The translations under genes and the position numbers were made by a program. Positions 15,404-36,515 of a DNA stretch of 64,000 nucleotides are shown in pieces. Below the pieces are notes generated by a model. The model was not told where the DNA came from and made no database searches. It saw only the letters and a program-made list of their open reading frames with translations. Numbering within the stretch: the stretch's first letter is position 1; the number at the start of each line of letters is the position of its first letter. The stretch comes from Perkinsus olseni (lineage: Eukaryota): NCBI GenBank assembly GCA_013115125.1, contig JABANN010000116.1, forward strand, positions 1 to 64,000, read 5' to 3'.

Positions 15404-15542
15404 GCATCAAGTCTTCTCTGACGGACTCATCGCTCTACCATTGACCCGGCAACCCAACAGTGACAATGATAATACTAGTTGGTACGTAGGAACAGTATTA
15501 ACGTTGTGAGCAGGAGCCGAAGGCAGAAGGCGGGTGTCATCA

Positions 15543-17135
15543 CTACTCTACTCTGGCCTTTTTTCCAGGACCATCAAAGCCTCCACTCTCAGCACCCCTC
15601 TTAAAGCCCTTACCCTTACCCTTGCCTTTGCCTTTGCCTTTACCATGGCCGCCTTTCCCCTTCCCCTTGCCGTGACCGCCGAATCCTTTCCCTCCCTTCC
15701 CCTTCCCTCCTTCAAACTCGCTGAAGCCTTTACCCTTCCCTTTTCCCTTCCCTTTCCCCTTTCCCTTTCCTCCTTCTGCAAAACCGTGACCCTTTCCTTT
15801 GCCTTTGCCCTTCCCCTCACCCCCGTCATCTTCACTAAAGTCCTTCCCTTTCCCCTTGCCTTTCCCCTTGCCCTTTCCTTTTCCCTTCCCTTTTCCCTTC
15901 CCTTTCCCTTCTCCTTCCCCTCGCTCTTCATCGTCCTCAGCAGAAAAGAGGCCTTTTCCTTTACCCTTTCCCTTCCCCTTTCCTTTTCCTTTACCCTTTC
16001 CCTTCCCCTTTCCTTTTCCTTTACCCTTTCCTTTGCCCTTTCCTTTGCCCTTTCCTTTGCCCTTTCCTTTGCCCTTCCCCGTTCCGTAAGACTCTTCAGG
16101 CTCATCATCTCCACCCTCGGAGAGATCATCAAGGAACCCCTCCTCTCCCTCTTCTTCTTCTTCTTCTCCTTCTTCATCTTCTTCCTCTTCACCTCCTTCC
16201 TCATCTTCTCCTTCAGCGTCATCATCCTCAAGCTCCTCTACGGCGCCTAAAAACAGCAGTCGACTTTCCTCAACCCAGCAGACGCCGCGGTCAATCCACT
16301 AGACCAAGCATCACCTTCTTCTTCTTCCTCCTCCCCTCCACCATCACTGACATCCTCCTCCTCTTCCACTACTTCATTCTCCTCGTCATCACTCTCACCG
16401 CCGAACATCGCGTCCATCTCCTCCATGCTGAGATCCCCGTCCTCAGCGCTCTCTTCCTTCCCTGCTGGCTTGGATTTCGTGGCAGCCTTCTTCGCCTCCT
16501 GCTTCTCCTTGTAGGCCTTCAACTTATACTGAAACTTCTTCCCCGATAAATGCCTAACGACAGAGCACCTGCATTGCTAGCCCGACGAAAACCCCGATTA
16601 TAGTAGGAAACGAGAGCCCCCAAACTTCTACTTGTGGACCGAGTCAGCGTCCTTATTGACCTTCTTATGCGTAACAACGCAGAAGTAACAGTGAGGGTAG
16701 CGGTCGTGTTGGATGAGGTAATCCTTATATTGTTCAACCTGGCAGAGCAAGCAAACAAAAGATTCCCCCAAAGATGAGGGATCCAACACAGTTACCTCAT
16801 CATTAACACTGATGCCTTCCTCCACCAACTGCCTTGCCTTCAGGTACTTGGGTCTGTTAATATACTCGTGAACTATCTGGTACGTTAAAGGCATCTCATG
16901 ACCTGTCATCATACTGGCAATGAAGCCACCCACCGGTTCAATCCGCGACGATAGTTTCGGCGAGCTTCTAGACGATACTATTGACCCGACGGAGCGATGC
17001 CGGCCAGCTCAACTCTCGCCTCCCTCCATTACCCGTTGAGATGCATTTGATCTTCGTTTTCTCTTCATTGAAAGCCAAATCGGCATGCCCCTCGACGAGC
17101 TCCGTCAGCCGAGAATCTTCGGTAGCCACTGGCAT
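15543..17135 (-). CDS. SURF2: Surfeit locus protein 2 (SURF2) homolog with acidic tract and long GK-repeat tail
   Basis: Spliced sequence KIKCISTGHEMP...YINRPKYLK...EQYKDYLIQHDRYPHCYFCVVTHKKVNKDADSVHKHLSGKKFQ fits the SURF2 pattern. Ends GGFDGPGKKARVE*. Confidence 0.85.
15600..16080 (-). repeat. Coding low-complexity (Gly-Lys)n tract
   Basis: Plus strand has ccttt(c/g)/ccctt hexamer arrays, which read GGN-AAR codons on the minus strand. Confidence 0.9.
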
Positions 17136-17356
17136 TTCTCAAGTTGAGCGAATAACAGCACTTTAATGCAATATCGTTGACCCACCCTAACTTCATCACA
17201 CCCTTAAGCACTTCCAACTCAGCACAAGATAGACAAAATAATAATCTGATCGACTGGTTCCGTCACAAAATCCCCGCTGATGCCAAACTTCAACCGCTGT
17301 GCTCGGCTGGACAGTAAAGCCCTCTTCCAGCTCTGCGCTATCGTGTGTATGACCCT

Positions 17357-17780
17357 CAGACGTTCTTAGCGATGGCACCCTTCACTATCGGTTGATTCAA
17401 TAGCCGCTTTCGCGCCTCCTTCAGAGCGCCCTGAGAGACAGCGATGCCATCTCACGTCCGCGGGTCGAATAGAAACACTTCACGGCGGAGCCTCTTCCAA
17501 GACTAGCCCAATCCCCCGTGCACTACCGCTTCCTTAATCAAGCCTCTTCCCACCGCCAGCAGCCCTAAGCTCAGTATCATGAATACGATGCCACCCAGGG
17601 TCGTTTGGACATTCCATGAAGAATTCCACATTAAACTTCCATTAGCTTCAACATAAGATACCACCTAGTGCAACACTCCGCAGCAGAGACTCAGTTCAAG
17701 TGTAGTTTTCGATAGGTCAACACACATGCAGCTTATTCACTGCTGTCAGGTTCTCTCTTCATCATCGTCTCATCGGCCAT
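17357..17780 (-). CDS. Possible small membrane protein gene
   Basis: Exon-like pieces MADETMMKREPDS, TTLGGIVFMILSLGLLAVGRG (TM-like) and GALKEARKRLLNQPIVKGAIAKNV*. Splice phases not fully resolved. Confidence 0.3.
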
Positions 17781-17978
17781 ACCCGCCCCAACGATAGACT
17801 ACCCTTCGCGGGGACGTGGGAAACGGTGTAGTATAGTTATCAAGACAGGAGCAGCAGCTCCAGCCAAGATACTTACTATTAACAGATATTATTTACGTGG
17901 AGAGTTGTTGAAGGAACGGTATCAGTTATCGCTTTGGTAATAATCTCATTACTACTACTGTACTATAGGCTCTCGAGT

Positions 17979-20526
17979 TCACATGGTGAACTGCCGCTTG
18001 TCACCGGAGGCCTTCTTCCCATAAGGGTTGCTCGCGCTGAAGTCGCCTTGGCCCTTATTATACCTTCCTGACTTCACCATTTTCCGACCACCCCTGAAAA
18101 ATGACCAAGTTCCCATCAACCACAGATGCCACGCTTCAACCTAAGATACCCCTGAGGCGAGCGGCCCCTCCACTTGCCTGTCACTCTTCTTAGTATCCTT
18201 CAAATTGAGATCAACCTTCGGCGGCACTGCAAATCCAAAGCACTTAGCGAGCTTCTGCAGGTCCAATGAGTGGACATCAAAGCAATCCTTAGACGCATGA
18301 GCTGCATAAGCATGAAGATACGACCGGTAGGCGTCCCGGCTGGCGCGGTGTAGGTGGTAGTTGGTCTCCACCAACTTCTCCAACTGATGCTGTATGTTAG
18401 CAACCTTTGCTGGAGGGAAGACGTACTCGTTGAGAGTCGTCACGCCCGATTTTCGGAGGTACCTACCCGACAGTTGAGTCATCTCCCTCACCACCCAAGG
18501 AATGATCACCTCAAGAAGCCAAGCTCTTCAGGCATGAGGAAGAGGAGAGCCTTTCCAGTGCCTTCTGCGCCTCTTGCAGTTCGACCAACGCGATGGATGT
18601 ACTCCTGCGACGGCAATCCACGGTCAGGAGGTGGGGCAGATGAGTAGTACCTTCGGATCATCCGGAGGGTCGTACTGGACGATCCAATCAACCTTGGGAA
18701 TATCCAAACCTCTCGCAGCTACATCCGTACCTGCCCGTGAGTAACAGTGCTAAATTCATACCACTCCTCCGCCAAATCGCAAAGGGTGATGAGTCCCAGG
18801 CTCTTACACAGGAGTATACCAGACTCCATCTGGCAGAACCGATAGAAGTTGGTCATCCGAGCCGACTGCTTCTTCTGTCCATGAATGGATATGACCGGAA
18901 TATCGATGTAGTTGAGCAGCTCATCGTGGAACTTCACCGAGTTGCAGGACGAAAAGAAGACCATCACCTGACCAAAGTGAGTGGGGAGAAGACGACCTCC
19001 AACAGCAGCAGCAGCAGCGCTTCTTACCTTCTTTTTCTGGTTCTTCTTAAGGAAGGTGAACAACAGTCGGAGACGATCGTCGCCGCCCACAACGACATAA
19101 CCCTGCACCAACCCGGAGGCTGTCGAGGTTGCCGCATCCTACACAGGAGCACTATAACAACAAGGACTGGCAACTCCCCTCAGCTACATCATCAGCTCCC
19201 TTGCTCTGCACAAAGATAGGCTTCTTCAGCGACAACCGCGCCAAGTCGTTAACCTAAGATTCGCGATCCAGGTCGAAAGAGGAATCACAAGTAGCTTCAC
19301 CTTCTGCGTCTGAGTGGCGGAGAAAAGCGACGTCTGTCTCTTCTTAGGGAGTATCTTCAATATCTGGTTCATATCCTCCTCGAACCCTAAACCAATAGCC
19401 TAACAGCGGTCTGTGCTGCCCCAACACTACCAATCTGGAGAATCCTATCAGCCTCATCGATGACCAGGCTCATGAGGTTGGCGTAGACGAAGCCTCTGGT
19501 GTTCTGCAGGTGGTCGAGTAGCCGTCCAGGAGTGGCAACTGAGGAGGTGAGACCTTATGGACTGACGGCGCCAAAGATCAGCGCCTCACTGAGAATATTG
19601 ATTCCTCTAGAAAGTTTATCAGCTTCGTTCTTCCTATTAACTCCGCCCATGACAATACCGTAGGTTTGAGAAAGCTTCGTGGCATCGACAAGCTGTCACG
19701 GAAAGATACTCTAGAGGTCGAACAGGGGAAAGATACTACCCTCTTGCACACGTCAAAGATTTGCATGGCCAGCTCACGAGTGGGGGAGATAACCATAACG
19801 CCAGTACCTATACCACAGCATATCCGACCAACCCGGCAGCAGCTCCACCTGACCGTTCTTAGGCTGGAAACGTGTAGCCACGAGAAGCTCCAAGGCCGGC
19901 ACCAAGAAGGCCAGGGTCTTGCCGGACCCTGTCTTGGCCGCTCCCAGTACCTGCAAAGTCTCCCTCCTCTACTGACGCCGCCCCACACAGCCCTTTCTAT
20001 TACATCTTTTCCCTTCAACATGAGAGGGATGGCCTTAGCCTGGATGTCTGTCATCGTAGTGAAGTTGCAGGCGGTAAGAGCCTCCTTGAGAGGGTCGCAG
20101 ATTTGAAGGTCAGTGAACTTCTTATTCGAGAAGAATCCCTTCTTGCCCGAGGGAGGCTCAGTGGTAGCCTGAGCCATGAGCCCTCCCATACATCCCCCTA
20201 CCCCACCGCGACCTACCTCGGCCCCCTTGTCAACGCCATTACCCTCAGCAGTGGTAACTAACAGCCATAAGCGACTTAGCGGGTCGAGCAGGTTAGCGAG
20301 GCTCCTACCTGCAGCACTCTGCCGTACGGCAGAGATCTTCTCTTCCTTCTCCTCCTTCCTCTGCTGCTTCATTTCCTCTTCCCGTCGTTCCTTGGCTTCC
20401 GATGGGTCGCTCTTCTGTCAGGTTAGACGACGTATTTAACGGTAGCTAGTCCGAAGGCCAGCAGCTCACCTTTTTGAAGGCCTTCTTCCTGTTGGCCGCC
20501 GCTCGAGGCTGCTGTGGATTCGTCAT
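17979..20526 (-). CDS. HAS1: ATP-dependent DEAD-box RNA helicase HAS1/DDX18
   Basis: Q motif [90 protein letters not shown] and C-terminal NPYGK. Confidence 0.97.
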
Positions 20527-20701: not shown

Positions 20702-22056
20702 TCATTGAAGATACGGGTACATATAGATGTCGTAGTCCCCGTTGTTGGAGTCGCCTAAGCATCAACCTCAGATCCTTACCAAGCCATCGAGCCTTTCCGA
20801 TCTCCAGTCACACCCATTCCGCCGTACATCGAAATCACCAACATGCGAAGGTGAGCAGCCGCGAGTTGAAACCCCCAACGCCAACAATGCCATCGTGAGC
20901 GACCCTAGCGCGTCTCAGATCGTATTCTGGGCCACTGAGCGCTAGGCGCGGGTCCCCCTATCGCACTTACTACTAATACAAGTGAAATTGTGCTTCCTAT
21001 ACAGTTTCCCAGCGTATCTATTGCTTCGCCCCGCTGCCAGATACACGGCCATAATATCGGGTTCTACCGTGCGGATCTGCAAGCGTTCGAAGGACTACTA
21101 TACTCGAGCAGACGCTGAGGACAAGGTAAGCTTGGTGCGGTTGGGCTCACTTCATTAAGCGCCTTGGGTAGCATGGTGCTCCCGACACGCTTGTTCTGCC
21201 ATGGAGGGGTCGCCTCTACTGTCCCTATATACGCCACTACGGCATCTTCTTGTGTCTTATTTCTGAGTAGGACCGTGCTGCAATCACTAACCAGGCCTGT
21301 CGGCAGCGAGTGCGTAAGCCCTTTTCGAGGGCGTCAGAGTATGGCTCTGGTAGACTCATGAACGTCACCCAAAACTATGGTAGTCGCCGTCATGATGTGC
21401 CCTCATCACAGTAGTTGAATTCGCTGTCCTTTTGCAACCCACGCTTGAAAATCATTCTCCGGGTGCTGGATTTGAAATTGCTGTCATGGAAATATCGCCG
21501 GCACCCGGAAGGTTGTACATGTATAAGCACATCGAAAAATGAGAACAGGTATCTATTTGCCTCTAGCGTCGATCCGCACCCTAGATTGATATGAGTTGGA
21601 ACGGAGTAGAGTTTCAATACATCTCTGGCAGTACTACATTGCGGATAGGACGCAGCCGGGTACGCTCTCCGCTAGCATCCATAGCACTTTTCCCACAACC
21701 GCCTGATCACAGCAATTATGGGAGAGGTCGATCAATTCTACCAACTGCCACGCCTTCTGATCGGCGTGAGACATCACAGGGGTCTCACAGCGCCGCCAGA
21801 CCCGTCTCACCGTTGCGTGTGGGGCTTTTGGATCAACCGCGACGAACGCCTCGTATCCAAAATAGTCCTCCACGTACTCATAATCCATCATGTCGTCCCA
21901 CCTCCCTGCTCGATATACGAGCTCCGAAGCGTTGGTACTGTACCTCCTATTTCGAGCTACTACACGGCGGTGACCGCTTTTGGCAGTCGCTCGCTTAGCC
22001 GAGAGGAAGCTGATATGGGACAGGCTTGCTAGGGCGATCAGCCTTATCACTGCCAT
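20702..22056 (-). pseudogene. GNAT-fold acetyltransferase paralog 1 with signal-peptide-like N-terminus; in-frame TAG at 21634-21636
   Basis: MAVIRLIALASLSHISFLSAKRA. Motif A-like AYIGTVEATPPWQNKRVGSTML and motif B-like AVYLAAGRSNRYAGKLYRKHNF. AM*YCQR aligns with EMEACQR of paralog 4. Confidence 0.65.
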
Positions 22057-22706: not shown

Positions 22707-23681
22707 TTACTGGGGGTAGAGGTAAACGCAGAAAAGAGAGGAGTCTTTGTTGCCTGAACAGCAGCTCGGAGCCAACTTCAGCTCGGAAGTTTCAGACCGA
22801 GGTCATGGTGCGTGTGTTAGGTCATGCTGCACGAGTGGGGGAGACGAGAGAAGGCAGTGCATTTGAGTCATCCGGTCATACACACTTACACTTACCATGG
22901 ACACAAGTGAAGTTGGTCTTCTGGTACAGCTTTATGGCGTACGTTTTTTCCTTGCTAACTCCCAGATATGCGGCCATAACGTTTGGAACTTCGTCGCGGA
23001 TCTGCACGTTGCTATTGCACTCGAGAGGTTAGCGAAGGGTGGAGAGGGTGGAGGGGTTCCCTCCGAGGGGAGCCAGGCTCACCTTATCTAATGCTTTCGG
23101 CAGCATTGTGCTCCCGACGCGGTGATTCTGCCAAGTTGGGAGGACATTTACGGACCCTATGTAAACCACCACGGCCTCCTGCCGTGACTTGTTTCTGAAT
23201 GAGAAGACGGCCCGGTATTAGCAACGACGATAGGTAACGGCAGTGAGCACGGCGGCCTCTAATTGCCGCCCTTACATTTTGTTCAAGACAACGTCCGGTG
23301 TATTCTCCGCCATCCGCCATGAAACTTCTCCTGCGACAGCCTGCCAAATGGTTGTATCGACGGGGGAGTGTTGAACTAGCCAGTATCAGTTGCTGCATCT
23401 ACAGATGCAAAGGGGATCGATCACGAATTAGGGCTTACCTCCTCAGCCGGGGCTTTTGGATCCACCGCGACGAATATTTTATAGGAGAGGAGCTTCATAT
23501 ATTGATAAACCGGTTTATCGTCATATCTTCCTGGTCTATATATAAGCTCCGAAGCGTTTCTACTGTAGCTGCCATCTGCAGCCGATAAACGGCGAGGGCC
23601 GCTGCTTGGGGTCGCCCGCTTAGCCGATAAGAGGCCGATGTGGGCTAGACTTGCGAGGGCCAACAGCCTTATCGCTGCCAT
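22707..23681 (-). CDS. GNAT-fold acetyltransferase paralog 2 with signal-peptide-like N-terminus
   Basis: MAAIRLLALASLAHIGLLSAKRA; VYIGSVNVLPTWQNHRVGSTMLPKAL; AAYLGVSKEKTYAIKLYQKTNF; last exon GNKDSSLFCVYLYPQ*. Confidence 0.75.
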
Positions 23682-25825: not shown

Positions 25826-27847
25826 ATGAGAGGTTGTGGGGCAGTCCGCGGTATCCAATGCTTCTCGTACGGGGCCTCAGGCTTCCTCTGTCTCACGTCC
25901 TGCGTGGTGACAGCCATTGCTAACTCCTTGATGAAGTTGGATGCGCTCCGTATTGAGGCAAAGGTGCAGCAGATGATATTGATGGACATGGATGAATGGG
26001 AACCTCCTCCAGTGTATAAACGGAGGCTTGTCGGGTAGTAGAAAGAGAGGGCCGATTCGGTGATGAGAATGAGATGAGGGCTACGGATTGCCCGAGCGGG
26101 CACCCTAAAGGCTTCTTCGGACGAGCAGCATGGACTGGGAATCCTGGCCCTACCGTGCAAGTATCGTTTGCCTCATCCATCATTCTGATGTCACGGGTCG
26201 TTGCGAGCTACGTTGGATGGCTGCTGACCCTTCAGGTTGGCGGTGGTATTCTACGTACTCTCGGCGGTGTTCGACTTCTGGTCGTTGGTCTACATCTCGA
26301 TGTCTATTCGTGCCTGCTCCTCGGGCCTTACCGTACCGGCCAATGCAGCTGTGGCCCGTGTTATGCTGGGGGAGGGTCTTTCCAGAGCACAGGTGATTTC
26401 ATCTGTCCTCATCACCATGCAAGATGAATGTCTTGGTCGGTCGGTCGGTCGGTCGGTCGGTCGGTCGGTCGGTCGGTCGGTCGGTCGGTCGGTCGGTCGG
26501 TCGGTCGCCTGTGACTACTGTCGGCGCTCCGACTTTAGTACCGTTTTGAGCATACTTGGCATATCGCGTGAGAACCGTCAGTGATATTCCTACTGGAGAC
26601 GCAGTGGATTTGAACTCACTCTCAATACCCATCAGTTTACTAGGACCGATGACTTTACTCGGGGACCATCCTCGTCGTAAACCCGGACTCTACCAACTTC
26701 GCGACCTTTACACCGCGCAGTGTTGGTCATCTCAGACGGTTGGCTCCATCCTGATAGTGCTAGGAGCGGTCTCAGCAATGGCTTTCGGGTCGTCCTCGGA
26801 TGATGGCGGTGGCTCGGATGAAAGCATAGCCGGACTGCTCTCCAGCGCTAGGTTTATAACTTTTGTTGGTAAGATGCGGGGGTTGAACTCGCGACCATCC
26901 GATAATTGAACGGGTAACTTATCGAGTTGGATATAGAGGCTCATTATCGTTTAGCGGCGACTTTCCCCTTCTACCTGCTGGCCTTCACGGTCTCCAAGTG
27001 GTCGATGAGGACACATGTGGCTATCGATGATCATATACCGGTCAGTCAAGCTCAGGTAGTCCCGAGGTGGAATCAAGCATCCGCAGCAGCCCTGGAATTC
27101 TCCTCTATCCGCACTCGCTAGGTTCACAAGCGTCGACTGCGCCGTGCTGTGGCTCTTCTCGCTCTGGCCTTCCTCGGTGGATACCAATCTGCTGTCACCG
27201 CTCTGGCTGGGAAGTTCGGCGCTCAGTACATTGCGATGGACGGCCTCGCAAGTAACGCTGACTCGCTGCTAGCCTCGATGATCGCAACTCTCGACGAGTT
27301 ATCGTTCTCGGAGTCCATTGAGTTCCACAGTGGTCGGTCTTCGCCTTTCTCCTCTTTTCAGCGTATCAGCCCTACCTATGCTTCAGCATAGTGCTAGTAT
27401 CATCGCTGATGCAGTTGACGTTCATGTCGTGGATGATGAGACAGTTCGATGCGGTGGTTTGCATACCGCCCTACCAAATCCTCCTCATGCTCTTTATGGT
27501 ATCTTTTGGAGCAGCGTGCTTCCAAGAAGTAGGTCGGATCTTATAATGCTCTCATTTTCGGAAGTCACTTCAACTCTGCCACGTGGGCTCATCATTTTCT
27601 AGGATGTGCTTCCTCTCTAGTTTAACCTGTTGTCAAGGTCATACCATCTTTTGGCCAGCTCTCAGCACCTCTATTCTAGGTGCCCAAGAACGTGCCGTGT
27701 TTCATGCTAGCCCTCGCCCTAGCCTGTGTGGGTATCGTATGCATGTCGATGGATACCGAGCATCACGACGCGAGATCGCCAATATCCGGCGCGCAAGAAC
27801 GCCCTCTGATGGTGGATACGTTAAGGCCGTCCGGACCAGTTCGGTGA
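25826..27847 (+). CDS. NIPA-family (DMT superfamily) magnesium transporter, multi-exon
   Basis: LCLTSCVVTAIANSLMK; VPANAAVARVMLGE; VGSILIVLGAVSAMAFG; MQLTFMSWMMRQFDAVVCIPPYQILLMLFMVSFGAACFQE; FMLALALACVGIVCM. Start exon uncertain. Confidence 0.8.
26435..26506 (+). repeat. (GGTC)18 microsatellite in a NIPA intron
   Basis: Perfect 72-nt tetranucleotide array. Confidence 0.95.
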
Positions 27848-28661
27848 TGAGACATGACTTTTGTACGATCAGACGTAGACTGAGAGGCGTTAATTGGATT
27901 TTGTTTGACTGCTCTGACTGTCTCATAAAACGCGTACATTGCCCTCGATGAGGTGTTTAGTTGCACAGTTGTGGTGATAGGCAATGGGACTGGCTCTTTC
28001 ATTTTCTATGAGGCTTGGATACGATTACGACCGTTGTGAGTGAGTAGACCTGTCTGGCCCTTGTTTCAAAGCCTTTGTTGTTGTTATTAACCGGGATAAT
28101 ATCCTCTTAGCGATTGCTGCGTTAAATGCAAATGTGAGATGCTGTCGAGAGATGCCGTCCGTGTTTTTGCAGAGACTACGCCATCACCGTCCGGATGACA
28201 CCTCAGTCGCGAGTTCGACGCTGACCGAGGCTGTTGGAATGGATCTTATGTATCCATGGGAGTTCCTCGCCAGAAGCAATGAGCGGTGACGTGAGCTTGC
28301 TACGGTGGCCCTTCGCTGGCTTGACGTAACTTATGAAGACGAATACCGTTGTGATGAACAACAACAACATGATGATGATGATGATGAGTCCACCGTCAGA
28401 CTGTCAACTTTCTTTAGGGATTGTAGAAGAAGGCGTAGACTTGGTGATTCTTTGAGTACGAGGAACCTGACCAATCGGACGGGGCATGGCAGTATTTTTT
28501 TCATAGTACCCTCCCTGCTTTACTGTCAAATACAGGTGATGGAAGACACTGCTCCAATCTGAGCCGCATAGCAGCGGTGTCTATAATACACTCAATTCAG
28601 TCGGGTGTCCCTCTCCTCGGTTACCGAGGATCGGTAGGGCGAGAGGCTAGCGATGGACTTA

Positions 28662-29767
28662 TCAGCGCCCATAACCCTTGGCCAGGGGACATGATAGTCC
28701 CGTACGTATCACTTGCCGAAAATTCATAGAGCGACAGCAGCCTAGACCCATACTGTGGGACTTACGACCAACATGTATGAAGTTGAGCTTGACGTATCTT
28801 TCTATCTCGTAGTCAGGTCGGTCTTTGCGGACAAGCGTGTACACTGCCATCACGTTCGGTTTCTTCTCGCGGATCTGCAAGGAACGATGGTTCTTCGGAA
28901 TTAGATGCGTTGCGGTGAAGTAATCCTGGCGAAGTTTACATGAGTAAGCGCTCTCGGGAGCAGCTCCCACCAAACTTTTGAAGCCAGTGCGAACTTGCGT
29001 CGGTAAGGCTTCACCCAGTCTGCGACTATGTAGGCCGCCGCCTGCGCCGGACTGTTTTTCTTCTGCTTTGTACTCGACGACGCCTTCGGAAGACTCTTCC
29101 TGAATGGCACCGATTATTCCATGGGAATAATTCCATTCCAAAGATGATTGAGTTTATCTTCCTGAGAGCCCCCTCGAGACTTAAAGCTCATCGAACAATC
29201 GTCCGATGGTATGATCACTGATCATCGCTTAGCCCCCCCCCCTCCCCAACGCAGTTGGCACTGTTACATTGCCCGGTACGGTACGATAGGTACGGTACGG
29301 TACGGTACGGTACGGTAGGCCTACATTTGGGAAGACACACAGCTCGGAATTTCCTTCGCCAGCTTCATCTCCCACTCCACCCCCCCAAGGACAGCCTGAC
29401 AGAGAACACGGACAGTATGGGCCTTCACCGGTCCTTTGTCTCATGTTAAGAACAGCGGCCATCTCACCTGATTCTTCGAGGCATTCGGGTTGATTGCTAA
29501 GAAGAAATAGTGAGGGTTGGGACTCCATGTTGCATTATGATGCATGACGTCGCCATCAATCTTCGGCCTGTACACGACTATGTCGTCCTCTGTCGTCGTC
29601 GGGAGAGGAGGAGGCTGAGTACTCTCCTCCGGACCCGCCCCTCTAGCCGAAGGTAGCTCGACGTGAGCTCCTAGGTCCAAATGATGAGAACCGCGCTTTG
29701 AAGTCGCCCGCTTTCTTGACAGAAGGCCGAGGTGCACCAGATTCGCCAATACGATGATGAGCCTCAT
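28662..29767 (-). CDS. GNAT-like paralog 3 with divergent acetyl-CoA motif
   Basis: MRLIIVLANLVHLGLLSRKRA; AAYIVADWVKPYRRKFALASKVWWELLPRAL; IREKKPNVMAVYTLVRKDRPDYEIERYVKLNF. The 3' end is approximate. Confidence 0.65.
29274..29317 (+). repeat. Imperfect (CGGTA)n microsatellite, intronic
   Basis: cggtacggtacgataggtacggtacggta... Confidence 0.9.
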
Positions 29768-30402
29768 CCACACAGGGAAAACTGCGCACAGTTCCTTCAG
29801 CAATCACCTCGTACTGGGTGTAGCTGGGAAAATACCCGTCACAATCAGCCACGGAGCGTGGGGGATTTCTTGGAAGAGCCCTCATCGAGCGTTGGGCCTC
29901 TCGAGCTTCCTGGGCGGGCGAGGGGAGCCCCTGTGGAGGGTGTGCAACATTTTCATAGTCCTCACAGTGGCTGGATAAATTTCACTGAAAATGTGCACTA
30001 CTGGTACGACTGAACTGTTGGTGACATGCCGGAGGACTTGCGCGACTTTTCTTCAGCCGCTATTTCCTTGAATGGTAGCCCGACCATACCAGGGAGATGC
30101 GGTGCAGTAGGGCAGGAGGATGATCAGTCTTCTCAGTTCGTGGTGGATGATTTCACAGCATCTTCTCACGCGATCAGTCTGTCGGCTTCCGCAGTTGTTT
30201 CTCAGTCTCTTATATGCGGTCGACATTTACTCGTCCTTTCATCGCCCTGACAGCACTCCTAGCGGCCTTACTGTCTCTAATACTGTAGGTAGGGTGGAAT
30301 CGTGAGGGTATCGAGTCACCATCTCCGTGAGAAGTGGCTTGGCTAGCTCCCCTTGCAACCGCAGGTGCAACTCGGGCGTCAGGTATGACTTCAATTACAT
30401 CG
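29691..30402. repeat. Segmental duplication, copy 1 (partner 34424-35190): GNAT 5' end, intergenic region and ABHD12 5' end
   Basis: Long near-identical stretches, e.g. gggtgtagctgggaaaatacccgtcacaatcagccacggagcg and tcaggtatgacttcaattacatcg. Confidence 0.9.
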
Positions 30403-30754
30403 GCCTATGCTTCAGCAAAGTGATAGTATCATCGCTGATGCAGTTGACGTTCATGTCGTGGATGATGAGGTAGCTCGATGCGGTGGTTTGTATACCGCCC
30501 TACCGAATCCTCCTCATGCTCTTCATGGTATCTTTTGGAGTAGCGTGCTTCCAAGAAGTAGGTTGCATCTCATAATGCTTTGATTCTTGGAAGTCACTCC
30601 AACTCTGCCACATGAGCTCATCATTTTCTAGGATGTGCTTGTTTTCTATCCTAACCTGTTATGAAGGTCATACCATCTTCTGGCCAACTCTCAGCGCCTC
30701 TATCCCTGGTACCGAAGAACGTGCCGCGTTTCATGCTGGCCCTCGCCCTAGCCT
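30214..30754 (+). pseudogene. Chimeric ABHD12(5')-NIPA(3') pseudogene
   Basis: Exon 1 MRSTFTRPFIALTALLAALLSLIL and exon 2 RYDFNYI are joined in frame to a 351-bp copy (30404-30754) of NIPA 27375-27725. TAG at 30471-30473 replaces CAG. Confidence 0.8.
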
Positions 30755-31249
30755 TTTCATTTCCTGTTTTACTCCGATCGTCGAATCGTGTTGAAGTCGA
30801 GCCGGGTTCGCTGATGTCGCCTCTACCACGCTGGCCTTGTTATTCTTTCAACTGCTGGTGAAGTCGTAGCATTCATTACTTCAAGGGTCCCCAATGAACC
30901 GACGGACTTGTTCTGGCCCGCGCCCGTGGCTCGCCTGCCTCCCTCATCAGCTTACTCCATGCACTTATCCTCGGTGGTTCGCTACCTGCTGATAAGAGGA
31001 GGATCGGGCAGCACTGCAACAGTAGATGTCATCGTTGATATCGTACACAGAACGTGATTTCACCACGCCAGAGTGCTACAGTGAACTGGAGCATGTTATG
31101 GGCCATGCTCTACGTTAGCTGACCTAACCAGGGGCCTTCCCCGAGTTCACGGCCAATCGACTCGTTAGTTGGTTCGGCTAGGCAAGGGACTCTGGTTGGT
31201 GAGCTCTACCTTGGCCCCAGTGTTCAGTTTTTTTTGTTCATGGAAACCA

Positions 31250-32751
31250 ATGACTGAGGATCGAACCACTCCGCGAAAGCAACAAAGGAGGCTATCACTA
31301 CTGCAGTCATTTTTGGTCGTCGTCTTGCCTATCATCATCGCCTCCGTCCTGTAACCTCGTGCTTCCCTCCAAGCTTGCTGCCGCTGGCCATCATTTCGTT
31401 CTCAGATACGATCCCACTACTGTGGTCACGGGGCTCATCCACTTGCATTTCGTCCATTGGCCCACCAGAATTTGGCCGTTGGATAACCCCGAGAGGGACT
31501 TTGGTTTGGTTGGCGCACGAAATTACAGAATCCGCAGCGGCGACGCCGAGCTGGGGTTGTGGCATGTGAGTCGTGCCACGAGGCGGGATGCTCTAGGCTG
31601 GATTTATCCCTTCCTCCACTTTTTGATTTCCCATGGTGTCAGGTACCCCCGGCTGACGGTAACAAAGGGAAGCGTGTTGTTGTGTAGGCCTTTGGGAGAA
31701 GGCATGCGGGAATCTTTCGATGGTGCCCCCGAATCAAAGTGAAGCTTGGTCTGTTGTAGTTACTTCCACGGCCAAGCTGGTGCTAGAGAGCATGGCCACC
31801 GGGTGGAGCTCTACCGGCATCTTTCGAGGGACATGGACACTCATGTGGTCACCGCGGATCTCAGGGGGTGTGCTCTCGACCGTTTGGAAGATTCACTTCG
31901 ACCTATCGTGTCCAGGTACGGCGACTCCGCAGGATTCCCTTTTGTCGAGGGCATCACCGAGGATATCAAGACCGTCACAGACTGGGCCATCGACAACGTG
32001 GCGAGGAAGCTTGATGTAGCGAACTGGCGAATAAGACTACCCGACACGACTGGGAATTCCAACAGATACCGATCTACATGTACGGTCATTCTCTGGGCGG
32101 TCCACAGGCTGTTTATGCCGCCCTGCATGCCCTAGACAGAGAACAGAAAGTGGGTTGTTGTTGTTGTTGTTGTTGCGCTCCAGAGCAACGTCCCTGGGGA
32201 CCACGGCTCCTCAGGTCAATGGCGTTATACTAGAATCGACATTCTCGAGCTTCGAGGAGGTTGCAGCTGACCACATCTCTACCTGGTTCCTCTGGATCTT
32301 CCCCCGATCCATCCGACTGGACATCATCCGATGGGGATTCTCGTAACGTTCCTCCTGCTCACGGGGTGTCTAGCTTAGCCATGTTGTATGTGTGCAGGTT
32401 CGCCCTTCAAGGGTCGGACTTCCGCTTCGACACAGCAAGGCTACTGCAAGACCTACGCAGACGCGATCCATCCATACCGATCGTCAGTTTCCATGGTGAA
32501 ACCCGGCTATCGGTTCAGCCTCGGCCCCCACTCTCGTCGAGCCCCCCATCAGTCTGTGTGCATCAGGCACGAAAGACTGGGAGATATCTCCTCACGCTAT
32601 GGACAAGTTGGCAGCTTGTGTCGATAATGTCAACTACACCAGAGTCCCGATCCAAGGGGGTGGCCATAGCACCCTTATCTACCCTCCTCAAGGGAAGCAG
32701 TTCCTCGCGGCTCTCAAGGACTGGTTCTACAGCGTGGAAGGAAGTCGATGA
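31250..32751 (+). CDS. ABHD12-like alpha/beta serine hydrolase, paralog A
   Basis: N-terminal TM; YFHGQAGAREHGHRVELY; DLRGYGDS; YGHSLGG nucleophile; ILESTFSS; FHGTKD; GGGHS. Confidence 0.9.
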
Positions 32752-33552
32752 TTATCTGCTTTAACGGCCTTCTTTTCTGTTACGATGGACGAACTGAGTT
32801 CTAGTAGAGGCAACAGGCCTTCCGGCCCTAGCCTAGGCCCTCCACTTCCGTTGCCACGACGCTAGTAGCGCTTTACTGAGCGACGTGATCGCTCTCGGGC
32901 GGGCGCTCGATTGAGGTTATTGTTTTCCCTGAGCCTCGTTGTTTTCCGGAATGGTGAGAAGTGTTGAGCTTATCCGTGGTGTGCCGAAGGATTAACTGAG
33001 GGCTGAGAAAATGAGGGGCTAGCTGGCCCCGGGTTCCCTCTTAGGGAGCAGCGGACCTTCCCTCAGGGCCTTCTCGCTGGAGTTGAGCAATTCATTCAGA
33101 CAGGCGGTGCGGGTTGAACGCTGGCACGAGGACCTTTCGTAACGGAGGAGCATTGCAGCTAGGAGGAGTTGGTGAGGCATTGATGTCCAGGTAGAGCAGG
33201 ACGAAGGTCGTCCTCGAAAGCTCTGGCCCAGTTAGCCCATGGCCTCTTCAACCGTAGCGCCGAAATGTATCCGCTTACTGCCGCTGGATCCTCCGCCCAG
33301 TCGTCGTCATTCCCTCCGTTCGTGTCCTTCGAGCATCCTGTCCTGCTCCAACAAGCTCAATTGACTCTCGTTTTTCCAACCAACCCTGCTCTGACTACTC
33401 ATCAACATGAAGAGCTGGTAATGACTAATATCACAGTCTTGTGGTTCACAGCACATCACAGCAACATGTTATTGTTTCAGTTGCACCTCTCATGGCCGGT
33501 TGTCGTAGAAGTAAGCATAAACACGGTACTGTTCGCTCCACCAGTCACCTGA

Positions 33553-34503
33553 TCATACAATTCTACCATCCTTCGTCGTCACGTTCAGCTCGAGGCCATC
33601 ACATTGCGCCCAAGCGACGACGTTGATAGTTTGCGGGTGTGATCGGATATGAAGGACATCCTCGTCACTACGACACAGACGGGGCGGTGAAGAGATTGTG
33701 ATGCCACCGGGAGAGGGGAACAGTATCATGAGATTTCCCCCGAGAGTCCTGGTGGACTCACATCCGACTGAAGTGAAGTTGGATTTCTCGTAGTGTTGTA
33801 TAACGAATGCATCGCTTCGGTCGACGAGAACGTAGGCGGCCATAATGCTTGGTACTTCGGCACGGACCTGTAGGAATAGCTCGAGAGTTGGTGTCGTGTT
33901 GTCAGCAGCAGCAGCAGCAGCAGTGCTGAGGGTTGACAAGGTTACGTTTACTTTATCGAGAGCTCTGGGGAGCATTTCACTGCGAAGCCGGGCAGCCAAG
34001 ACATGTAGCCTGTGCCATGAAGGGATGACCCACTCCGAGCTTATGTAAGCCACCACGGCATCCTCACGAGACGTCTTCCTGAAAGGGACGGCCTGGCCTT
34101 CGAAAGCCTGAAGTGCCCCCCTCACATCCTGGTCAAGATACATTCGGGTATGTCTTTGGCAAGCTTCCATTTCACCTCTCCTATAACAGCCTGACAGGTT
34201 GAAGGGCACGCTACGTTGAAGGGGATAGGGTGGGGCAAAAGGAGCACTTCCAACGCTCACCTTCTCTTTCGGAGCATCTGGGTCAATTGCTAAGACGTGG
34301 TGTGGGTCGAACCCTCCCAGAATATCAGAATGGAGGAGGCCGCCATCCCTGCCTGATGTGTACACGATCTTGGAGAAGTTGAAAGCCTCTCGTTGTTCGC
34401 CCTGGGTCGGTAGCGGCGGAGGGCCGCGCTTTGAAGCCGCCCGTTTTTTTCTTGACAGAAGGCCGAGGTGTACTAGGTTCGTCAATACGATGATGAGCCT
34501 CAT
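33553..34503 (-). CDS. GNAT-like paralog 4 with divergent acetyl-CoA motif
   Basis: MRLIIVLTNLVHLGLLSRKKRA; DAVVAYISSEWVIPSWHR...MLPRALDK; IMAAYVLVDRSDAFVIQHYEKSNF. Probable introns read through in the 337-aa ORF. Confidence 0.7.
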   Translation of the reverse strand: MRLIIVLTNLVHLGLLSRKKRAASKRGPPPLPTQGEQREAFNFSKIVYTSGRDGGLLHSDILGGFDPHHVLAIDPDAPKEKVSVGSAPFAPPYPLQRSVPFNLSGCYRRGEMEACQRHTRMYLDQDVRGALQAFEGQAVPFRKTSREDAVVAYISSEWVIPSWHRLHVLAARLRSEMLPRALDKVNVTLSTLSTAAAAAADNTTPTLELFLQVRAEVPSIMAAYVLVDRSDAFVIQHYEKSNFTSVGCESTRTLGGNLMILFPSPGGITISSPPRLCRSDEDVLHIRSHPQTINVVAWAQCDGLELNVTTKDGRIV

Positions 34504-35190
34504 CGACACAGTAAAAACTGAGCACAATACTTCTGCGCTGGGTGTAGCTGGGAAAATACCCGTCACAATCAGCCACGGAGCGCGGGGGATTTCTTGGAAG
34601 AGCCCTCATCGAGCGATGGGCCCCTTCGAGCTTCCTGGGCGGGCGAGGGCAGCCACTGTGGAGGACGTGAAGAATTTCATAGTCCTCACCGTGGCTGTGG
34701 TATATGCGCCGAAAATTTGCACTACTGGTAGGAGCCTGTCATCTTGAATGTGACCCACGAGAGGTGTGAAGTTAGCAGTGCTGTAAGACAAGCGCTCCTG
34801 CACTGTTGGTGGCATGCCGGGGGACTTGGGGTTCCAATTTAGCCGCTATGTCCCTGCATAATGCGCAATCGTAGTGACGAGATCGGTCCAGTAGGGCTTT
34901 GGAATCAGTGGTGAGCCTCCTCGACTCGTTGTGGGTGATACCACAGCATGTCCCCACGCGATCGGTCTGTCGGCTTCCGCAGTTGTTTCTCAGTCTCTAA
35001 TATGCGGCCGATTCTTCCTCGCCCTTTCATCGCCCTGACAGCACTCTTAGCGGCCTTACTGTCTCTAATACTGTAGGTAGGCTGGACTCGTGAGAGCTTC
35101 GAGTAACCATCTCGGTGAGGAGCGCCTCGGTTAGCTCCCTTTGTAAGCGCCGGTGTATCTCGAGCATCAGGTATGACTTCAATTACATCG
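34424..35190. repeat. Segmental duplication, copy 2 (partner 29691-30402)
   Basis: Direct alignment by eye. Confidence 0.9.
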
Positions 35191-36515
35191 TTGTGTCTCT
35201 CATCCACCTCGACTTCGCTCACGCACCGAGTAGTATCAGCCCACTGACCGACCCGGCGGTCTCTTCCGGTCTACAAGGGGCGCACAACTATCGAGTCCAG
35301 AGTGGGAATGAGTCCCTCGGCGTCTGGCTGGTAAGGCTCCTCTTTCTTCGGGGTATCACTGCGCTCCATCAGATACCCGCCAATAACGCCACCAAACCGG
35401 CCGAGCGAGCCGTCATGTACGACGTGCTGTCGCGCCCACCACACGCCCGTTTTCAGATACTTCCATGGGCAGGCTGGCAGCCGCGGTCAAGGCCATCGCA
35501 TCAAACTGTACAAGATGCTCGCCAACAGGCTCAGTGCTACCGTAGTTGCCTTCGACTTGAGAGGGTGATACCTTCGCTCGACTGGTCCGCCAGACGAGAG
35601 CTGTCGCTGGGTAGGTATGGCGACTCGACAGGAACCCCCTGGACGAGTGGAGTTCTCGAGGACATTCGAACGATTGTAGATTGGACTGGGAAGATGCTTG
35701 ACAATAATACGGTGAGGGATAGGAAATCACTTCTGCCCCAAGTGAACTGGAATGCACTTTATCTGCATCAAGCGGGCCTTTGCTGTAGCAGTACCTCTTG
35801 TCTCCACAGTTACCCGTGTACCTGTACGGCCATTCGCTGGGAGGCCCCCAGGCGCTGTACGCGGCACGGTATATGGTGAAGACGGGACGACGGGTAGGGT
35901 TCTCAGCAGCGCCATGAGGTCCATCTACTGCCGCTGTTCATAGGTGTCTGGTTGCATTCTCGAGTCGACCTTCGTAGAGTTCCCGAGGACGGCTGCTCAG
36001 CACCCAATGACCCTCCCGCTTTGGTTTCTACCCGTGGACACCCGTACTCGGCTCCTGGCCTCTCTCATGGAGTAGATCACGCCAGCGCTGCCGTATTCCC
36101 GGGATTCTTCCCCTCCCTGTCAGACCTGCGATGAAGGACCCGACCCGGTTCGATTATTACACAGGAAGGCAGCTGCGACTTCTGCGGCTCGAGGCTCCCG
36201 GGATGCCTGTCATCAATTTCCATGGTACGCCAGGGGCCTCTCTTCCAAGGACGGCACCGCCCTGTATTTGGCTCGAAGTCAGCAAGTCCCTTTCGGGGTT
36301 TCGTCATACCTTGTCCAGGTTTATCCGACTGGCAAATACCCCCAGAGAATGCCCGAGCCCTGAAGGAGTCCGTCGGAGGCGTCGACTATACGACTGTCTT
36401 CATCAACGGCGGCGGCCATTCCGACCTTCACACTGGCGATCACCAGGACCAAATGGTCCGGGCTCTTCGAGAGTGGTTCCCACAGACGGCAAACCGATCC
36501 TCCACTGTTTACTAA
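35002..36515 (+). CDS. ABHD12-like serine hydrolase, paralog B
   Basis: MRPILPRPFIALTALLAALLSLIL; YFHGQAGSRGQGHRIKLY; YGDSTGTP; YGHSLGG; FHGLSD; GGGHSDL. Confidence 0.9.

What the first reader, a model, noticed from the sequence alone, without database searches (positions are those of the whole stretch)
29441..36515. Duplicated head-to-head cassette pairing a secreted-type GNAT acetyltransferase with an ABHD12-like deacylase
Seen: twice, a minus-strand GNAT-like gene and a plus-strand ABHD12-like gene start ~450-500 bp apart, and the whole intergenic region was copied with them (29691-30402 vs 34424-35190). Known: GNATs add acyl groups, and ABHD12-type serine hydrolases remove them from lipids on the luminal or extracellular side. 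Inference: this may be a co-regulated acylation writer/eraser module on a bidirectional promoter that remodels a surface lipid or host substrate. It sits in a cluster of 4 GNAT and 3 intact ABHD genes.
Basis: partly seen in the sequence, partly recalled or inferred. Interest (0 to 1): 0.75.

Follow-up and report, generated by a model that had tools for sequence, protein, structure and literature searches.

The report
Partial promoter-region copy, Perkinsus gene cluster
In the mollusc parasite Perkinsus olseni, the 0.7-kb start region shared by an acetyltransferase-like gene and a lipase-like gene was copied onto an older sister gene pair, leaving a dead lipase gene start; this looks like ordinary gene-cluster evolution, and a joint "write and erase" role is not shown.

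Summary
The repeat is real: 29686-30402 matches 34419-35190 (75% over 792 columns, 85% ungapped). It is a patch, not a copied cassette. The window is Perkinsus olseni DNA. It holds four intact 5-exon genes of a signal-peptide-like, NAT-type GNAT family (X1-X4, minus strand). It also holds three intact 9-exon ABHD12-like hydrolase genes (A1-A3, plus strand).

X4/A2 start 498 bp apart. The "second ABHD start" (30214) is only exon 1, intron 1 and 20 nt of exon 2. It is fused at 30403 to a 351-nt copy of a NIPA-like exon and stops after 53 codons. The intact neighbour A1 starts at 31250 with its own exon 1.

Beneath the patch lie two old divergent pairs, X3-A1 and X4-A2. X3/X4 share 52% of residues, A1/A2 share 44%, and silent sites are saturated.

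The GNAT call holds for the family: 22 of 33 relatives reach the Pfam cut-off, and an X4 model matches Naa60/Naa50. However, X3 and X4 lack the acetyl-CoA motif, and the nearest relatives acetylate proteins, not lipids.

Co-regulation and any writer/eraser link remain untested. Interest is low to moderate.

The parts
20705..22056 (-). X1, GNAT-family gene. 5 exons, 190 aa, hydrophobic N-terminus, motif WQNKRVG.
   Evidence: Spliced alignment. Model check: GT-AG introns, no stops. tblastn.
22710..23681 (-). X2, GNAT-family gene. 5 exons, 190 aa. Its close relative P0007 (167/190 identical) reaches the Pfam Acetyltransf_1 cut-off.
   Evidence: Pfam: P0007 scores 30.0 bits against a cut-off of 20.7.
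27375..27725 (+). Part of gene N, a NIPA-like membrane protein gene (lead only). This is the source of the 351-nt fragment copied to 30404-30754.
   Evidence: Repeat at 89.5%. Atlas: nearest clusters carry Mg_trans_NIPA, score 0.92. Pfam found nothing.
28417..29767 (-). X3, GNAT-family gene. 5 exons, 230 aa, intact. Its first 27 codons and 5' flank lie inside the copied patch. It has no acetyl-CoA glycine motif.
   Evidence: Spliced alignment to P0012, 195/230 identical. Model check. Motif.
29686..30402 (.). Copy 1 of the patch, the derived copy. It holds the X 5' coding end, the intergenic region, ABHD exon 1, intron 1 and 20 nt of exon 2.
29814..29973 (.). Best-conserved block of the intergenic region: 149 of 161 columns identical to 34538-34697. 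It lies 47-206 nt upstream of the X3 ATG.
   Evidence: No RNA structure signal: z -0.50 to +1.70. No Rfam match.
30214..30402 (+). Truncated ABHD 5' end: exon 1 (30214-30284), intron 1 (30285-30382) and the first 20 nt of exon 2. It reads on into the N fragment and stops at TAG 30471-30473 (53 codons).
30404..30754 (+). Copy of the gene N fragment, 89.5% identical to 27375-27725, with CAG changed to TAG in frame.
31250..32748 (+). A1, ABHD12-like hydrolase gene. 9 exons, 334 aa, with its own exon 1 (31250-31350).
   Evidence: 334/334 identical to P0040. The P. chesapeaki relative P0041 has the same layout.
33493..34503 (-). X4, GNAT-family gene. 5 exons, 199 aa when started at ATG 34503. It has no acetyl-CoA glycine motif.
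   Evidence: Exons 2-5 and the 3' part of exon 1 agree with P0002. The start is chosen by homology with X1-X3. AF2 and Foldseek.
34690..34815 (-). Upstream exon used by the public model of X4 (P0002) in place of the hydrophobic start. It is doubtful, because copy 1 lacks 64 nt of it.
34419..35190 (.). Copy 2 of the patch, the source copy: X4 5' end, the 498-bp intergenic region and the A2 5' end.
   Evidence: A2 exon 1 is collinear with A3 exon 1.
35002..36512 (+). A2, ABHD12-like hydrolase gene. 9 exons, 329 aa.
   Evidence: 310/329 identical to P0004, which one source names 'Monoacylglycerol lipase abhd12'.
42931..44564 (+). A3, ABHD12-like hydrolase gene. 9 exons, 329 aa, 78% identical to A2. 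No GNAT gene is next to it.

Best explanation
This is a Perkinsus-specific gene cluster with an old duplication and a younger ectopic copy laid over it.

Shown: the window carries four genes of a lineage-restricted NAT-type GNAT family with hydrophobic, signal-like N-termini, and three ABHD12-like membrane hydrolase genes.

Inferred (old event): a divergent GNAT/ABHD pair was duplicated in tandem, giving X3-A1 and X4-A2. A2 was later duplicated to give A3.

Inferred (younger event): about 0.72 kb of the X4-A2 start region was copied onto the 5' end of X3. Likely routes are gene conversion or template switching during repair, starting in the homologous first exon of X. The copied tract ran through the intergenic DNA into A2 exon 2, then switched to an exon of the nearby NIPA-like gene N, and rejoined upstream of A1.

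Consequences: X3 now carries X4's signal-peptide codons and 5' flank, so it may share X4's regulation. The ABHD start that came along is a dead 53-codon stub.

Function (inferred from relatives): the A proteins are Ser-Asp-His lipid esterases anchored by an N-terminal helix. The X proteins have a protein N-terminal acetyltransferase fold and probably enter the secretory pathway. X3 and X4 have lost the acetyl-CoA motif and may not be enzymes.

Nothing shows that X and A act on the same substrate.
For: Species. P0002 (207/207) and P0040 (334/334) are P. olseni proteins identical to window models.

Gene models. All seven are complete, with GT-AG introns and conserved intron phases.

Age contrast. 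Four-fold sites are identical at 23/52 for X3/X4, 21/73 for A1/A2 and 103/146 for A2/A3. By contrast, the patch is 85% identical (ungapped), its ABHD intron 1 is 78/98 identical, and the N fragment is 89.5% identical. The X3 and X4 bodies do not align as DNA.

Junctions. Homology to A2 ends at 30402 and homology to N starts at 30404. The in-frame stop is at 30471.

Direction. A2 exon 1 is collinear with A3 exon 1 (35009-36075 vs 42929-43979, 79%). A1 has a different exon 1 that is shared with P. chesapeaki.

Tree. X3-like and X4-like proteins form a clade with 98/95 support, using 16 of the 35 family proteins held.

GNAT. A profile of X1-X4 finds 33 relatives, and 22 of them reach the Acetyltransf_1 cut-off. 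The family profile hits AtNAA60 6tgx at E 3.3e-9. The X4 model (pLDDT 73.8) matches N-terminal acetyltransferases in Foldseek ranks 1-31.

ABHD. Pfam finds Abhydrolase_1, Hydrolase_4 and Abhydrolase_6. Ser169, Asp268 and His298 are invariant in 5 of 5 proteins. The nearest Atlas clusters are named ABHD12 or ABHD12B, score 0.97.
Against: The repair mechanism is inferred from anatomy alone. No clear microhomology is visible at 30402/30404.

Conservation inside the patch is very uneven, from 51% to 100% by segment. In permutations, 21 of 5000 reach the observed maximum and 1 of 5000 the observed minimum for 120-column windows. This fits repeated conversion or selection better than a single event.

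The dead ABHD exon 1 has the same splice phase as A1 exon 2, so it could still serve as an alternative first exon.

Two old, intact divergent pairs surviving side by side would also be expected if the pairing were functional.

The start of X4 at 34503 differs from the public model.

Signal peptides were judged only by hydropathy.
Confidence: 0.7

Rival explanations
1. One reading: X and A form a co-regulated two-gene module. They are driven by one bidirectional promoter and work on one substrate as acyl writer and acyl eraser at the parasite surface or on host molecules.
For: X4 and A2 start 498 bp apart, head to head.

Two old paralogous divergent pairs (X3-A1, X4-A2) are both intact.

Both families carry hydrophobic N-termini, so they may share a compartment.

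Promoter-proximal blocks are 92-93% identical between the copies.

In P. marinus, one intergenic region between divergent genes (PRDX) drove reporters in both directions (bioRxiv 10.1101/2021.06.11.447996, passages read).
Against: The nearest structural and sequence relatives of X acetylate protein N-termini, not lipids.

X3 and X4 lack the acetyl-CoA glycine motif that other family members keep. Among the 33 library relatives, none of the 5 X3/X4-type proteins (P0008, P0009, P0012, P0023, P0029) has it.

X1, X2 and A3 are unpaired.

At least 9 of 33 family representatives hold two or three GNAT cores, which points to GNAT-only arrays.

The middle of the intergenic region is its least conserved part, 51% with a 64-nt indel.

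The A-side block is equally well conserved in copy 1, where it serves only a stub. Conservation here may therefore reflect youth or conversion rather than function.

All pairs seen trace to one locus. No independent pair could be looked for.
Confidence: 0.15
2. Copy 1 is a working second pair. The exon at 30214-30284 is an alternative first exon of A1, spliced over a 1,121-nt intron (30285-31405). The patch would then give A1 an A2-type membrane anchor and promoter.
For: The donor GTAGGT is intact. Exon 1 ends in phase 2, as does A1's own exon 1, so the product would be in frame.

Exon 1 and its 5' flank are 90-92% identical to those of A2.
Against: A nearer acceptor (30382) with 20 nt of A2-type exon 2 follows and leads to a stop.

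Introns in these seven genes measure 29-375 nt, not 1.1 kb.

A1's own exon 1 is part of the public protein and has a counterpart in P. chesapeaki.
Confidence: 0.08
3. The junctions are an assembly artefact: paralogous or allelic reads of a repeat-rich, heterozygous genome were joined wrongly.
For: The structure is a mosaic of three sources with sharp borders.
Against: The copies differ by 15-25%, so they are not collapsed duplicates.

A separate library protein, P0012, has the same converted X3 N-terminus joined to an X3-type body.

Public gene models match the window exactly on both sides.
Confidence: 0.04

Closest known systems
Naa60 / Naa50 type N-terminal acetyltransferases (GNAT superfamily; solved examples 6tgx, 5icv, 3tfy)
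   Same: These are the best sequence-profile and fold matches of the X family. The beta4 'YI' tyrosine aligns with the one in 6tgx.
   Different: X proteins have a hydrophobic, signal-like N-terminus. Naa60 instead attaches to the cytosolic face of membranes (PMC7790372, passages).

Most family members have K/R where the motif Q/R-x-x-G-x-G/A has its first glycine, and X3/X4 have neither glycine.

The position aligned with the His of 'YLHV' in 6tgx is not conserved. That this His is the catalytic one is recalled, not tested.
Catalytically inactive yeast Naa50
   Same: It is a NAT-fold protein without the acetyl-CoA-binding motif (PMC7790372, passages). This is a precedent for X3/X4 being non-enzymes.
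   Different: It is a cytosolic subunit of a ribosome-bound complex. No partner is known for X3/X4.
ABHD12 / ABHD12B lysophospholipid lipases
   Same: Alpha/beta-hydrolase Pfam domains, a GHSLGG nucleophile elbow, invariant Ser-Asp-His and one N-terminal hydrophobic helix. The nearest Atlas clusters bear these names. One source names P0004 and P0005 abhd12.
   Different: Orthology was not tested by a tree and activity is unknown. A3 has a weaker anchor. That ABHD12's active site faces the lumen or outside is recalled.
ABH effector domain of Vibrio MARTX toxin (6imp, 6ii2)
   Same: It is the closest solved sequence relative of P0004: E 7.4e-12 over residues 87-213, including the nucleophile elbow.
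   Different: It is a bacterial toxin domain with only partial coverage. It was used for fold-family context only.
PRDX bidirectional promoter of Perkinsus marinus
   Same: It is an intergenic region between divergent genes that drives expression both ways in a reporter (bioRxiv 10.1101/2021.06.11.447996, passages).
   Different: No test has been done on 34504-35001, and no sequence comparison with the PRDX region was possible.
NAT8 / NAT8B, ER-lumen membrane-bound GNAT acetyltransferases of mammals (recalled, no call)
   Same: They are GNAT enzymes placed in the secretory pathway by an N-terminal membrane segment.
   Different: Not compared here. The X family's best matches are NATs, not NAT8.

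Membership tests
GNAT superfamily (Pfam Acetyltransf_1, PF00583) | Sequence match to the family model at its curated cut-off | tested here: not met
   X3/X4 themselves and their close relatives get no hit: the window ORFs, P0001, P0002, P0008, P0009, P0012, P0023 and P0029. Homologues do match: 22 of 33 family representatives reach 20.7 bits, including the X2 relative P0007 at 30.0 bits.
GNAT superfamily | Homology to undoubted GNATs, and the GNAT fold | tested here: met
   A profile of X1-X4 finds the 33 relatives, down to E 2.5e-58. The family profile, with X4 as first row, hits 6tgx at 3.3e-9 and other NATs. The AF2 model of X4 (P0002; pLDDT 73.8; 93 residues at 90 or above) matches Naa60, Naa10, Naa50 and Ard1 in Foldseek ranks 1-31, with target-normalised TM up to 0.61. 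Caveat: the alignment used for the model contained the GNAT-positive relatives.
GNAT superfamily | Acetyl-CoA pyrophosphate-binding motif Q/R-x-x-G-x-G/A at the start of helix alpha3 (motif as recalled) | tested here: not met
   X4 has WHRLHVLAARLRSE and X3 has YRRKFALASKVWWE: no glycine, and 5 extra residues. X1 and X2 have WQN(K/H)RVG, which keeps only the second glycine. Some relatives are canonical (RRKGIG, RSKGVA, QGKGVG).
GNAT superfamily | Acyl-CoA-dependent transferase activity | not testable with these tools
   Needs purified protein.
ABHD12-like alpha/beta hydrolase | Alpha/beta-hydrolase domain with a GxSxG nucleophile and a Ser-Asp-His triad | tested here: met
   Pfam: Abhydrolase_1 at 62.9 bits and Hydrolase_4 at 56.4 bits for P0004. 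S169, D268 and H298 are invariant in 5 of 5 proteins. GHSLGG, (S/K)DW and GGGH are present in A1, A2 and A3. The triad assignment is by position, not by structure.
ABHD12-like alpha/beta hydrolase | Single N-terminal membrane anchor | tested here: inconclusive
   Maximum Kyte-Doolittle hydropathy (15-residue window) is 2.87 for A1, 2.75 for A2 and only 1.53 for A3. No topology predictor was available.
ABHD12-like alpha/beta hydrolase | Orthology to animal ABHD12 rather than to another ABHD subfamily | not tested
   Only leads exist: Atlas neighbour clusters named ABHD12, ABHD12B or WAV2-like at 0.97, and one source's name for P0004/P0005. No tree with reference ABHD proteins was made.
Bidirectional-promoter gene pair | Divergent starts less than 1 kb apart | tested here: met
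   X4/A2: 498 bp, or 186 bp if the public X4 model is right. X3/A1: 1,482 bp, including the inserted fragments.
Bidirectional-promoter gene pair | Correlated expression, or activity in both directions | not testable with these tools
   No RNA data were within reach. A reporter system exists in P. marinus.
Ectopic gene conversion / segmental copy between paralogues | A tract far more similar than the flanking paralogous sequence, with discrete borders | tested here: met
   The tract is 85% identical (ungapped). By contrast, the X3/X4 bodies do not align as DNA and only 23/52 four-fold sites are identical. Borders lie at about 29686 and at 30402/30404.

The most novel reading that the evidence does not exclude
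X3 and X4 are pseudo-acetyltransferases. They are NAT-fold proteins that enter the secretory pathway, have lost acetyl-CoA binding, and have stayed paired head to head with an ABHD12-like lipase since before the X3/X4 split. They would then act as a partner, chaperone or specificity subunit of that lipase at the parasite surface. That would make this an unrecognised two-gene unit of a mollusc parasite, not a chance neighbourhood.
Probability: 0.08. Interest if true: 0.7.

Novelty: new variant of a known kind. Interest (0 to 1): 0.3.

Why it matters
As a duplication, this is routine genome evolution, and it warns against reading a copied promoter region as a copied functional cassette.

What is worth keeping is the gene family. 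Perkinsus carries a sizeable family of NAT-type GNAT proteins with signal-like N-termini: 33 representatives at 50% identity in a 1.84-billion-protein library. The named P. olseni members seen here are annotated only as hypothetical proteins, and four keyword searches of the held papers found no mention of the family.

One clade, X3/X4, has lost the cofactor motif and sits beside ABHD12-like lipases. If these proteins are secreted by a parasite that kills oysters and clams, they are candidates for host or surface modification.

The locus also offers a natural test of promoter function: the same 5' flank now sits in front of two different GNAT genes.

Tried and rejected
- Raw ORF translations against Pfam gave nothing for X and only a weak hit for one ABHD exon, because the genes are split by introns.
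- The first structure prediction (P0001 with an 11-row alignment) failed with pLDDT 34.7 and was not used.
- I first read the layout as one tandem duplication of a 3-4.8 kb unit (27375-30403 and 30404-35190). I rejected this because the interiors of the units do not align.
- I first thought A1 might begin at 30214. I rejected this when its public protein and the P. chesapeaki relative showed that A1 has its own exon 1.
- My first reading of X exon 2/3 frames was wrong in part. Family alignments corrected it.
- The conserved 160-nt block was tested as a structured RNA: z-scores -0.50, 0.83, 1.70 and 1.19 and no Rfam family. As a small ORF, the 3 differences in its 88-nt core all change the residue (my reading). 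Both ideas were rejected.
- Pfam for the NIPA idea found nothing. Only the Atlas lead supports it.
- Complex prediction on the A2-type lipase domain with the X4 domain returned no verdict. It counts neither for nor against binding.
The species of P0007-P0039 is therefore unknown.
- Literature searches: Perkinsus + ABHD12 returned 0 papers. Perkinsus + acetyltransferase + secreted returned 4 papers, none relevant by title and abstract start. Perkinsus/GNAT/N-acetyltransferase: one paper of the 8 listed holds all three terms, a dinoflagellate histone study, irrelevant by title and abstract start. The P. olseni genome-assembly/gene-duplication search listed nothing useful.
No second Perkinsus locus could be fetched.

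Full report
WHAT THE WINDOW IS. The window is intron-rich eukaryotic DNA with 49-58% G+C in 2-kb windows. Two public Perkinsus olseni proteins are letter-for-letter identical to gene models in it: P0002 at 207/207 and P0040 at 334/334. Relatives come from P. olseni, P. marinus and P. chesapeaki. I therefore treat the window as P. olseni nuclear DNA.

THE OBSERVATION.
- The repeat exists. Self-comparison gives 29691-30009 vs 34424-34733 (84.6%) and 30010-30402 vs 34798-35190 (79.4%).
- As one alignment, 29686-30402 vs 34419-35190 has 594 of 792 columns identical and 95 gap columns, or 85.2% without gaps.
- The intergenic sequence has no other copy in the window, and no similarity to the upstream regions of X1, X2, A1 or A3.
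- Two further repeats matter. 27375-27725 matches 30404-30754 at 89.5%. 35194-36057 matches 43121-43961 at 84.7%.

GENE MODELS. Long ORFs mislead here, so I mapped public relatives onto the window with tblastn and my own spliced aligner. I then checked each model for GT-AG introns, frame and stops.
- Minus strand: X1 22056-20705 (190 aa), X2 23681-22710 (190 aa), X3 29767-28417 (230 aa), X4 34503-33493 (199 aa). Each has 5 exons with intron phases 0, 2, 0, 1.
- Plus strand: A1 31250-32748 (334 aa), A2 35002-36512 (329 aa), A3 42931-44564 (329 aa). Each has 9 exons with the same phases.
- All seven are intact, so "4 GNAT and 3 intact ABHD genes" is right.
It also misses the last exon.
- The public X4 model (P0002) starts in an upstream exon (34815-34690) and skips the hydrophobic start. 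I prefer ATG 34503 for three reasons. X1, X2 and X3 all begin with the same kind of hydrophobic N-terminus. 13 of the 22 family representatives that begin with M do so too, by a crude hydropathy rule. Copy 1 lacks 64 nt of that upstream exon. This choice is not verified.

WHAT THE X GENES ARE.
- Pfam finds nothing in X3/X4 or their public models.
- A profile of X1-X4 searched against 1.84 billion representative proteins found 33 relatives at E up to 0.001 (16 up to 1e-10, 7 up to 1e-30).
- Of these 33, 23 match Acetyltransf_1 at E up to 0.01, and 22 reach the curated cut-off. The X2 relative P0007 is among them. The other 10 do not match, including all five X3/X4-type proteins.
- A 21-row family profile with X4 as first row hits solved N-terminal acetyltransferases: AtNAA60 6tgx at 3.3e-9, archaeal Ard1, Naa50 and human Naa60.
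- With that alignment, AlphaFold2 gives X4 a mean pLDDT of 73.8, with 93 residues at 90 or above. The doubtful first 46 residues score below 50.
- Foldseek ranks 1-31 against the PDB are all N-terminal acetyltransferases, and 162 matches have E up to 0.001.
- So the family is GNAT, of the NAT type.
- Family hallmarks are a hydrophobic N-terminus, NASELxYRP, FVAVDPKA, AVVAYI, W-Q/R-N-K-K/R-V-G-S-x-MLPKAL, and K-x-NFT-x-V (NFT in 17 of the 18 rows of A4 that cover it, my count). The two conserved N-x-S/T sequons and the signal-like start fit a secretory route. This is inference only.
- X3 and X4 form a clade with 98/95 support and long branches. The tree used 16 of the 35 family proteins held; multi-domain and fragmentary rows were left out.
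- That clade has replaced the cofactor motif by a glycine-free stretch 5 residues longer. Other members keep a glycine or alanine at the motif's last position, and four have a canonical R/Q-x-x-G-x-G/A.
- A NAT without this motif, yeast Naa50, is catalytically inactive (PMC7790372, passages).

WHAT THE A GENES ARE.
- P0004-P0006, P0040 and P0041 carry Abhydrolase_1, Hydrolase_4 and Abhydrolase_6 (precomputed).
- Ser169 (in GHSLGG), Asp268 and His298 are invariant in 5 of 5. The same motifs are present in A1-A3.
- A1 and A2 have strong N-terminal hydrophobic helices. A3's is weaker.
- Atlas neighbours are named ABHD12, ABHD12B or WAV2-like at score 0.97, and one source names two of the proteins abhd12.
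- The closest solved sequence relative is the ABH domain of a Vibrio MARTX toxin, E 7.4e-12.
- "ABHD12-like" is a fair label. Orthology was not tested.

ANATOMY OF THE REPEAT. Copy 2 (34419-35190) contains, in order:
- X4 codons 1-28;
- the 498-bp intergenic region;
- A2 exon 1 (35002-35072) and intron 1 (35073-35170);
- the first 20 nt of exon 2.

Copy 1 (29686-30402) has the same parts in front of X3. At 30402 the homology to A2 stops. From 30404 the sequence is a copy of an exon region of gene N (27375-27725). The Atlas places that exon with NIPA magnesium transporters (0.92, a lead; Pfam is silent). Read from ATG 30214, the chimera encodes 53 residues and stops at TAG 30471-30473, where gene N has CAG. 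A1, 1,482 bp from the X3 ATG, has its own first exon. That exon is part of its public protein and is paralleled in P. chesapeaki. The second "ABHD start" is therefore a stub.

HISTORY (INFERRED).
- X3/X4 share 52% of residues and 23/52 four-fold sites. A1/A2 share 44% and 21/73. A2/A3 share 78% and 103/146.
- X3 and X4 are sisters. A2 and A3 are far closer to each other than either is to A1.
- This fits an old tandem duplication of a divergent X-A pair (X3-A1, X4-A2), followed by a later A2 to A3 duplication without an X gene.
- The patch is much younger than the X3/X4 split. ABHD intron 1 is 78/98 identical and the N fragment 89.5%, while the X bodies no longer align as DNA.
- A2 exon 1 is collinear with A3 exon 1 (35009-36075 vs 42929-43979, 79%). 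The X4-A2 copy is therefore the source and the X3-side copy is derived.
- A tract that starts in homologous X exon 1, runs into A2 exon 2, switches to gene N and rejoins before A1 is what conversion with template switching would leave. I see no clear microhomology at the switch, so the mechanism stays a guess.
- A library protein, P0012, with the same converted N-terminus on an X3-type body argues against an assembly error on that side.

CONSERVATION INSIDE THE PATCH. Identity by segment:

| Segment | Identity |
|---|---|
| X exon 1 | 87% |
| -1 to -46 from the X ATG | 57% |
| -47 to -206 from the X ATG | 93% (88-nt core at 97%) |
| Middle | 51% (includes a 64-nt indel) |
| Last 60 nt before the ABHD ATG | 92% |
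| ABHD exon 1 | 90% |
| ABHD intron 1 | 80% |
| First 20 nt of ABHD exon 2 | 100% |

- Column shuffles reach the observed 120-column maximum in 21 of 5000 trials and the minimum in 1 of 5000.
- The conserved block shows no RNA structure signal and no Rfam family.
- Two promoter-proximal blocks with a decayed middle look like two separate 5' regions rather than one shared core.
- The ABHD-side block is just as conserved in copy 1, where it serves only a stub. Conservation alone therefore cannot be read as function here; patchy, repeated conversion is equally possible.

THE MODULE IDEA.
- For it: two old divergent pairs are both intact. X4 and A2 are closely spaced. Both products are probably membrane or secretory. 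Bidirectional activity has been shown for one other Perkinsus intergenic region.
- Against it: the X fold points to protein N-terminal acetylation. The paired X genes are the ones that lack the cofactor motif. ABHD12-type enzymes cleave lipid esters (recalled), so the pair is not an obvious write/erase couple on one substrate. X1, X2 and A3 are unpaired. At least 9 of 33 family representatives contain two or three GNAT cores, several with an internal signal-like segment, which indicates same-strand GNAT arrays. Every pair I can see belongs to this one locus.
- P0001 and P0005 share a contig length of 84,569. P0002 and P0040 share 69,743. This suggests only that the same locus exists in other assemblies.

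WHAT STAYED UNCHECKED. These items remain open:
- genome-wide pairing and synteny in other Perkinsus species;
- expression and spliced-leader sites;
- signal-peptide prediction with a proper tool;
- ABHD orthology.

Four keyword searches of the held papers, judged from listings only, found no paper on these families in Perkinsus.

VERDICT. The "duplicated cassette" is a 0.72-0.77-kb converted patch ending in a pseudo-start, laid over an older duplicated gene pair. The functional module is possible but has no positive evidence. The divergent secretory-type NAT family, and its cofactor-motif-less X3/X4 clade next to lipase genes, is the only part that merits follow-up.

Noticed in passing
window 42106-42179 (-): A tRNA-Trp (CCA) gene, the only Rfam or ARAGORN hit in the window. 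It lies about 750 bp upstream of the A3 start, where the other ABHD genes have a GNAT neighbour.
   Followed up: partly
window 30829-30972 (-): This stretch matches the N-terminal 48 residues of library protein P0023 (75%), an X3-type model, but has a stop codon in the window. It is probably a spurious upstream exon in another assembly's annotation.
   Followed up: partly
window 39733-41676 (+): A 648-codon open frame rich in acidic, Ala, Glu, Ser and Pro residues, with no Pfam family. It lies between A2 and A3. The opposite strand is also open for long stretches, as is usual in low-complexity DNA.
   Followed up: no
window 14001-18000, and 15602-16085: A region of strong negative GC skew (-0.26 to -0.29) holding internal direct repeats of about 115-235 nt spacing at 67-68% identity. 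Several long frames are open on both strands.
   Followed up: no
window about 26400-26510: A run of a 12-nt unit, read as GRSV or PTDR repeated about six times in different frames, inside the region of the NIPA-like gene N. It is probably intronic microsatellite DNA.
   Followed up: no
window 3290-3412 and 7353-7481: A 130-nt direct repeat at 80% identity, unrelated to the cluster.
   Followed up: no
window 58811-60214 (-), 19578-20414 (-), 1890-2540 (-): Flanking ORFs carry RRM_2 (84.2 bits), a piece of a DEAD-box helicase domain and DUF4708. The cluster therefore sits among ordinary housekeeping-type genes.
   Followed up: no
library proteins P0010, P0016, P0018, P0019, P0020, P0024, P0028, P0030, P0035: Family members with two or three GNAT cores. 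In P0010 and P0016 the second core is preceded by its own hydrophobic, signal-like segment. This suggests merged predictions of tandem genes rather than true fusions.
   Followed up: partly
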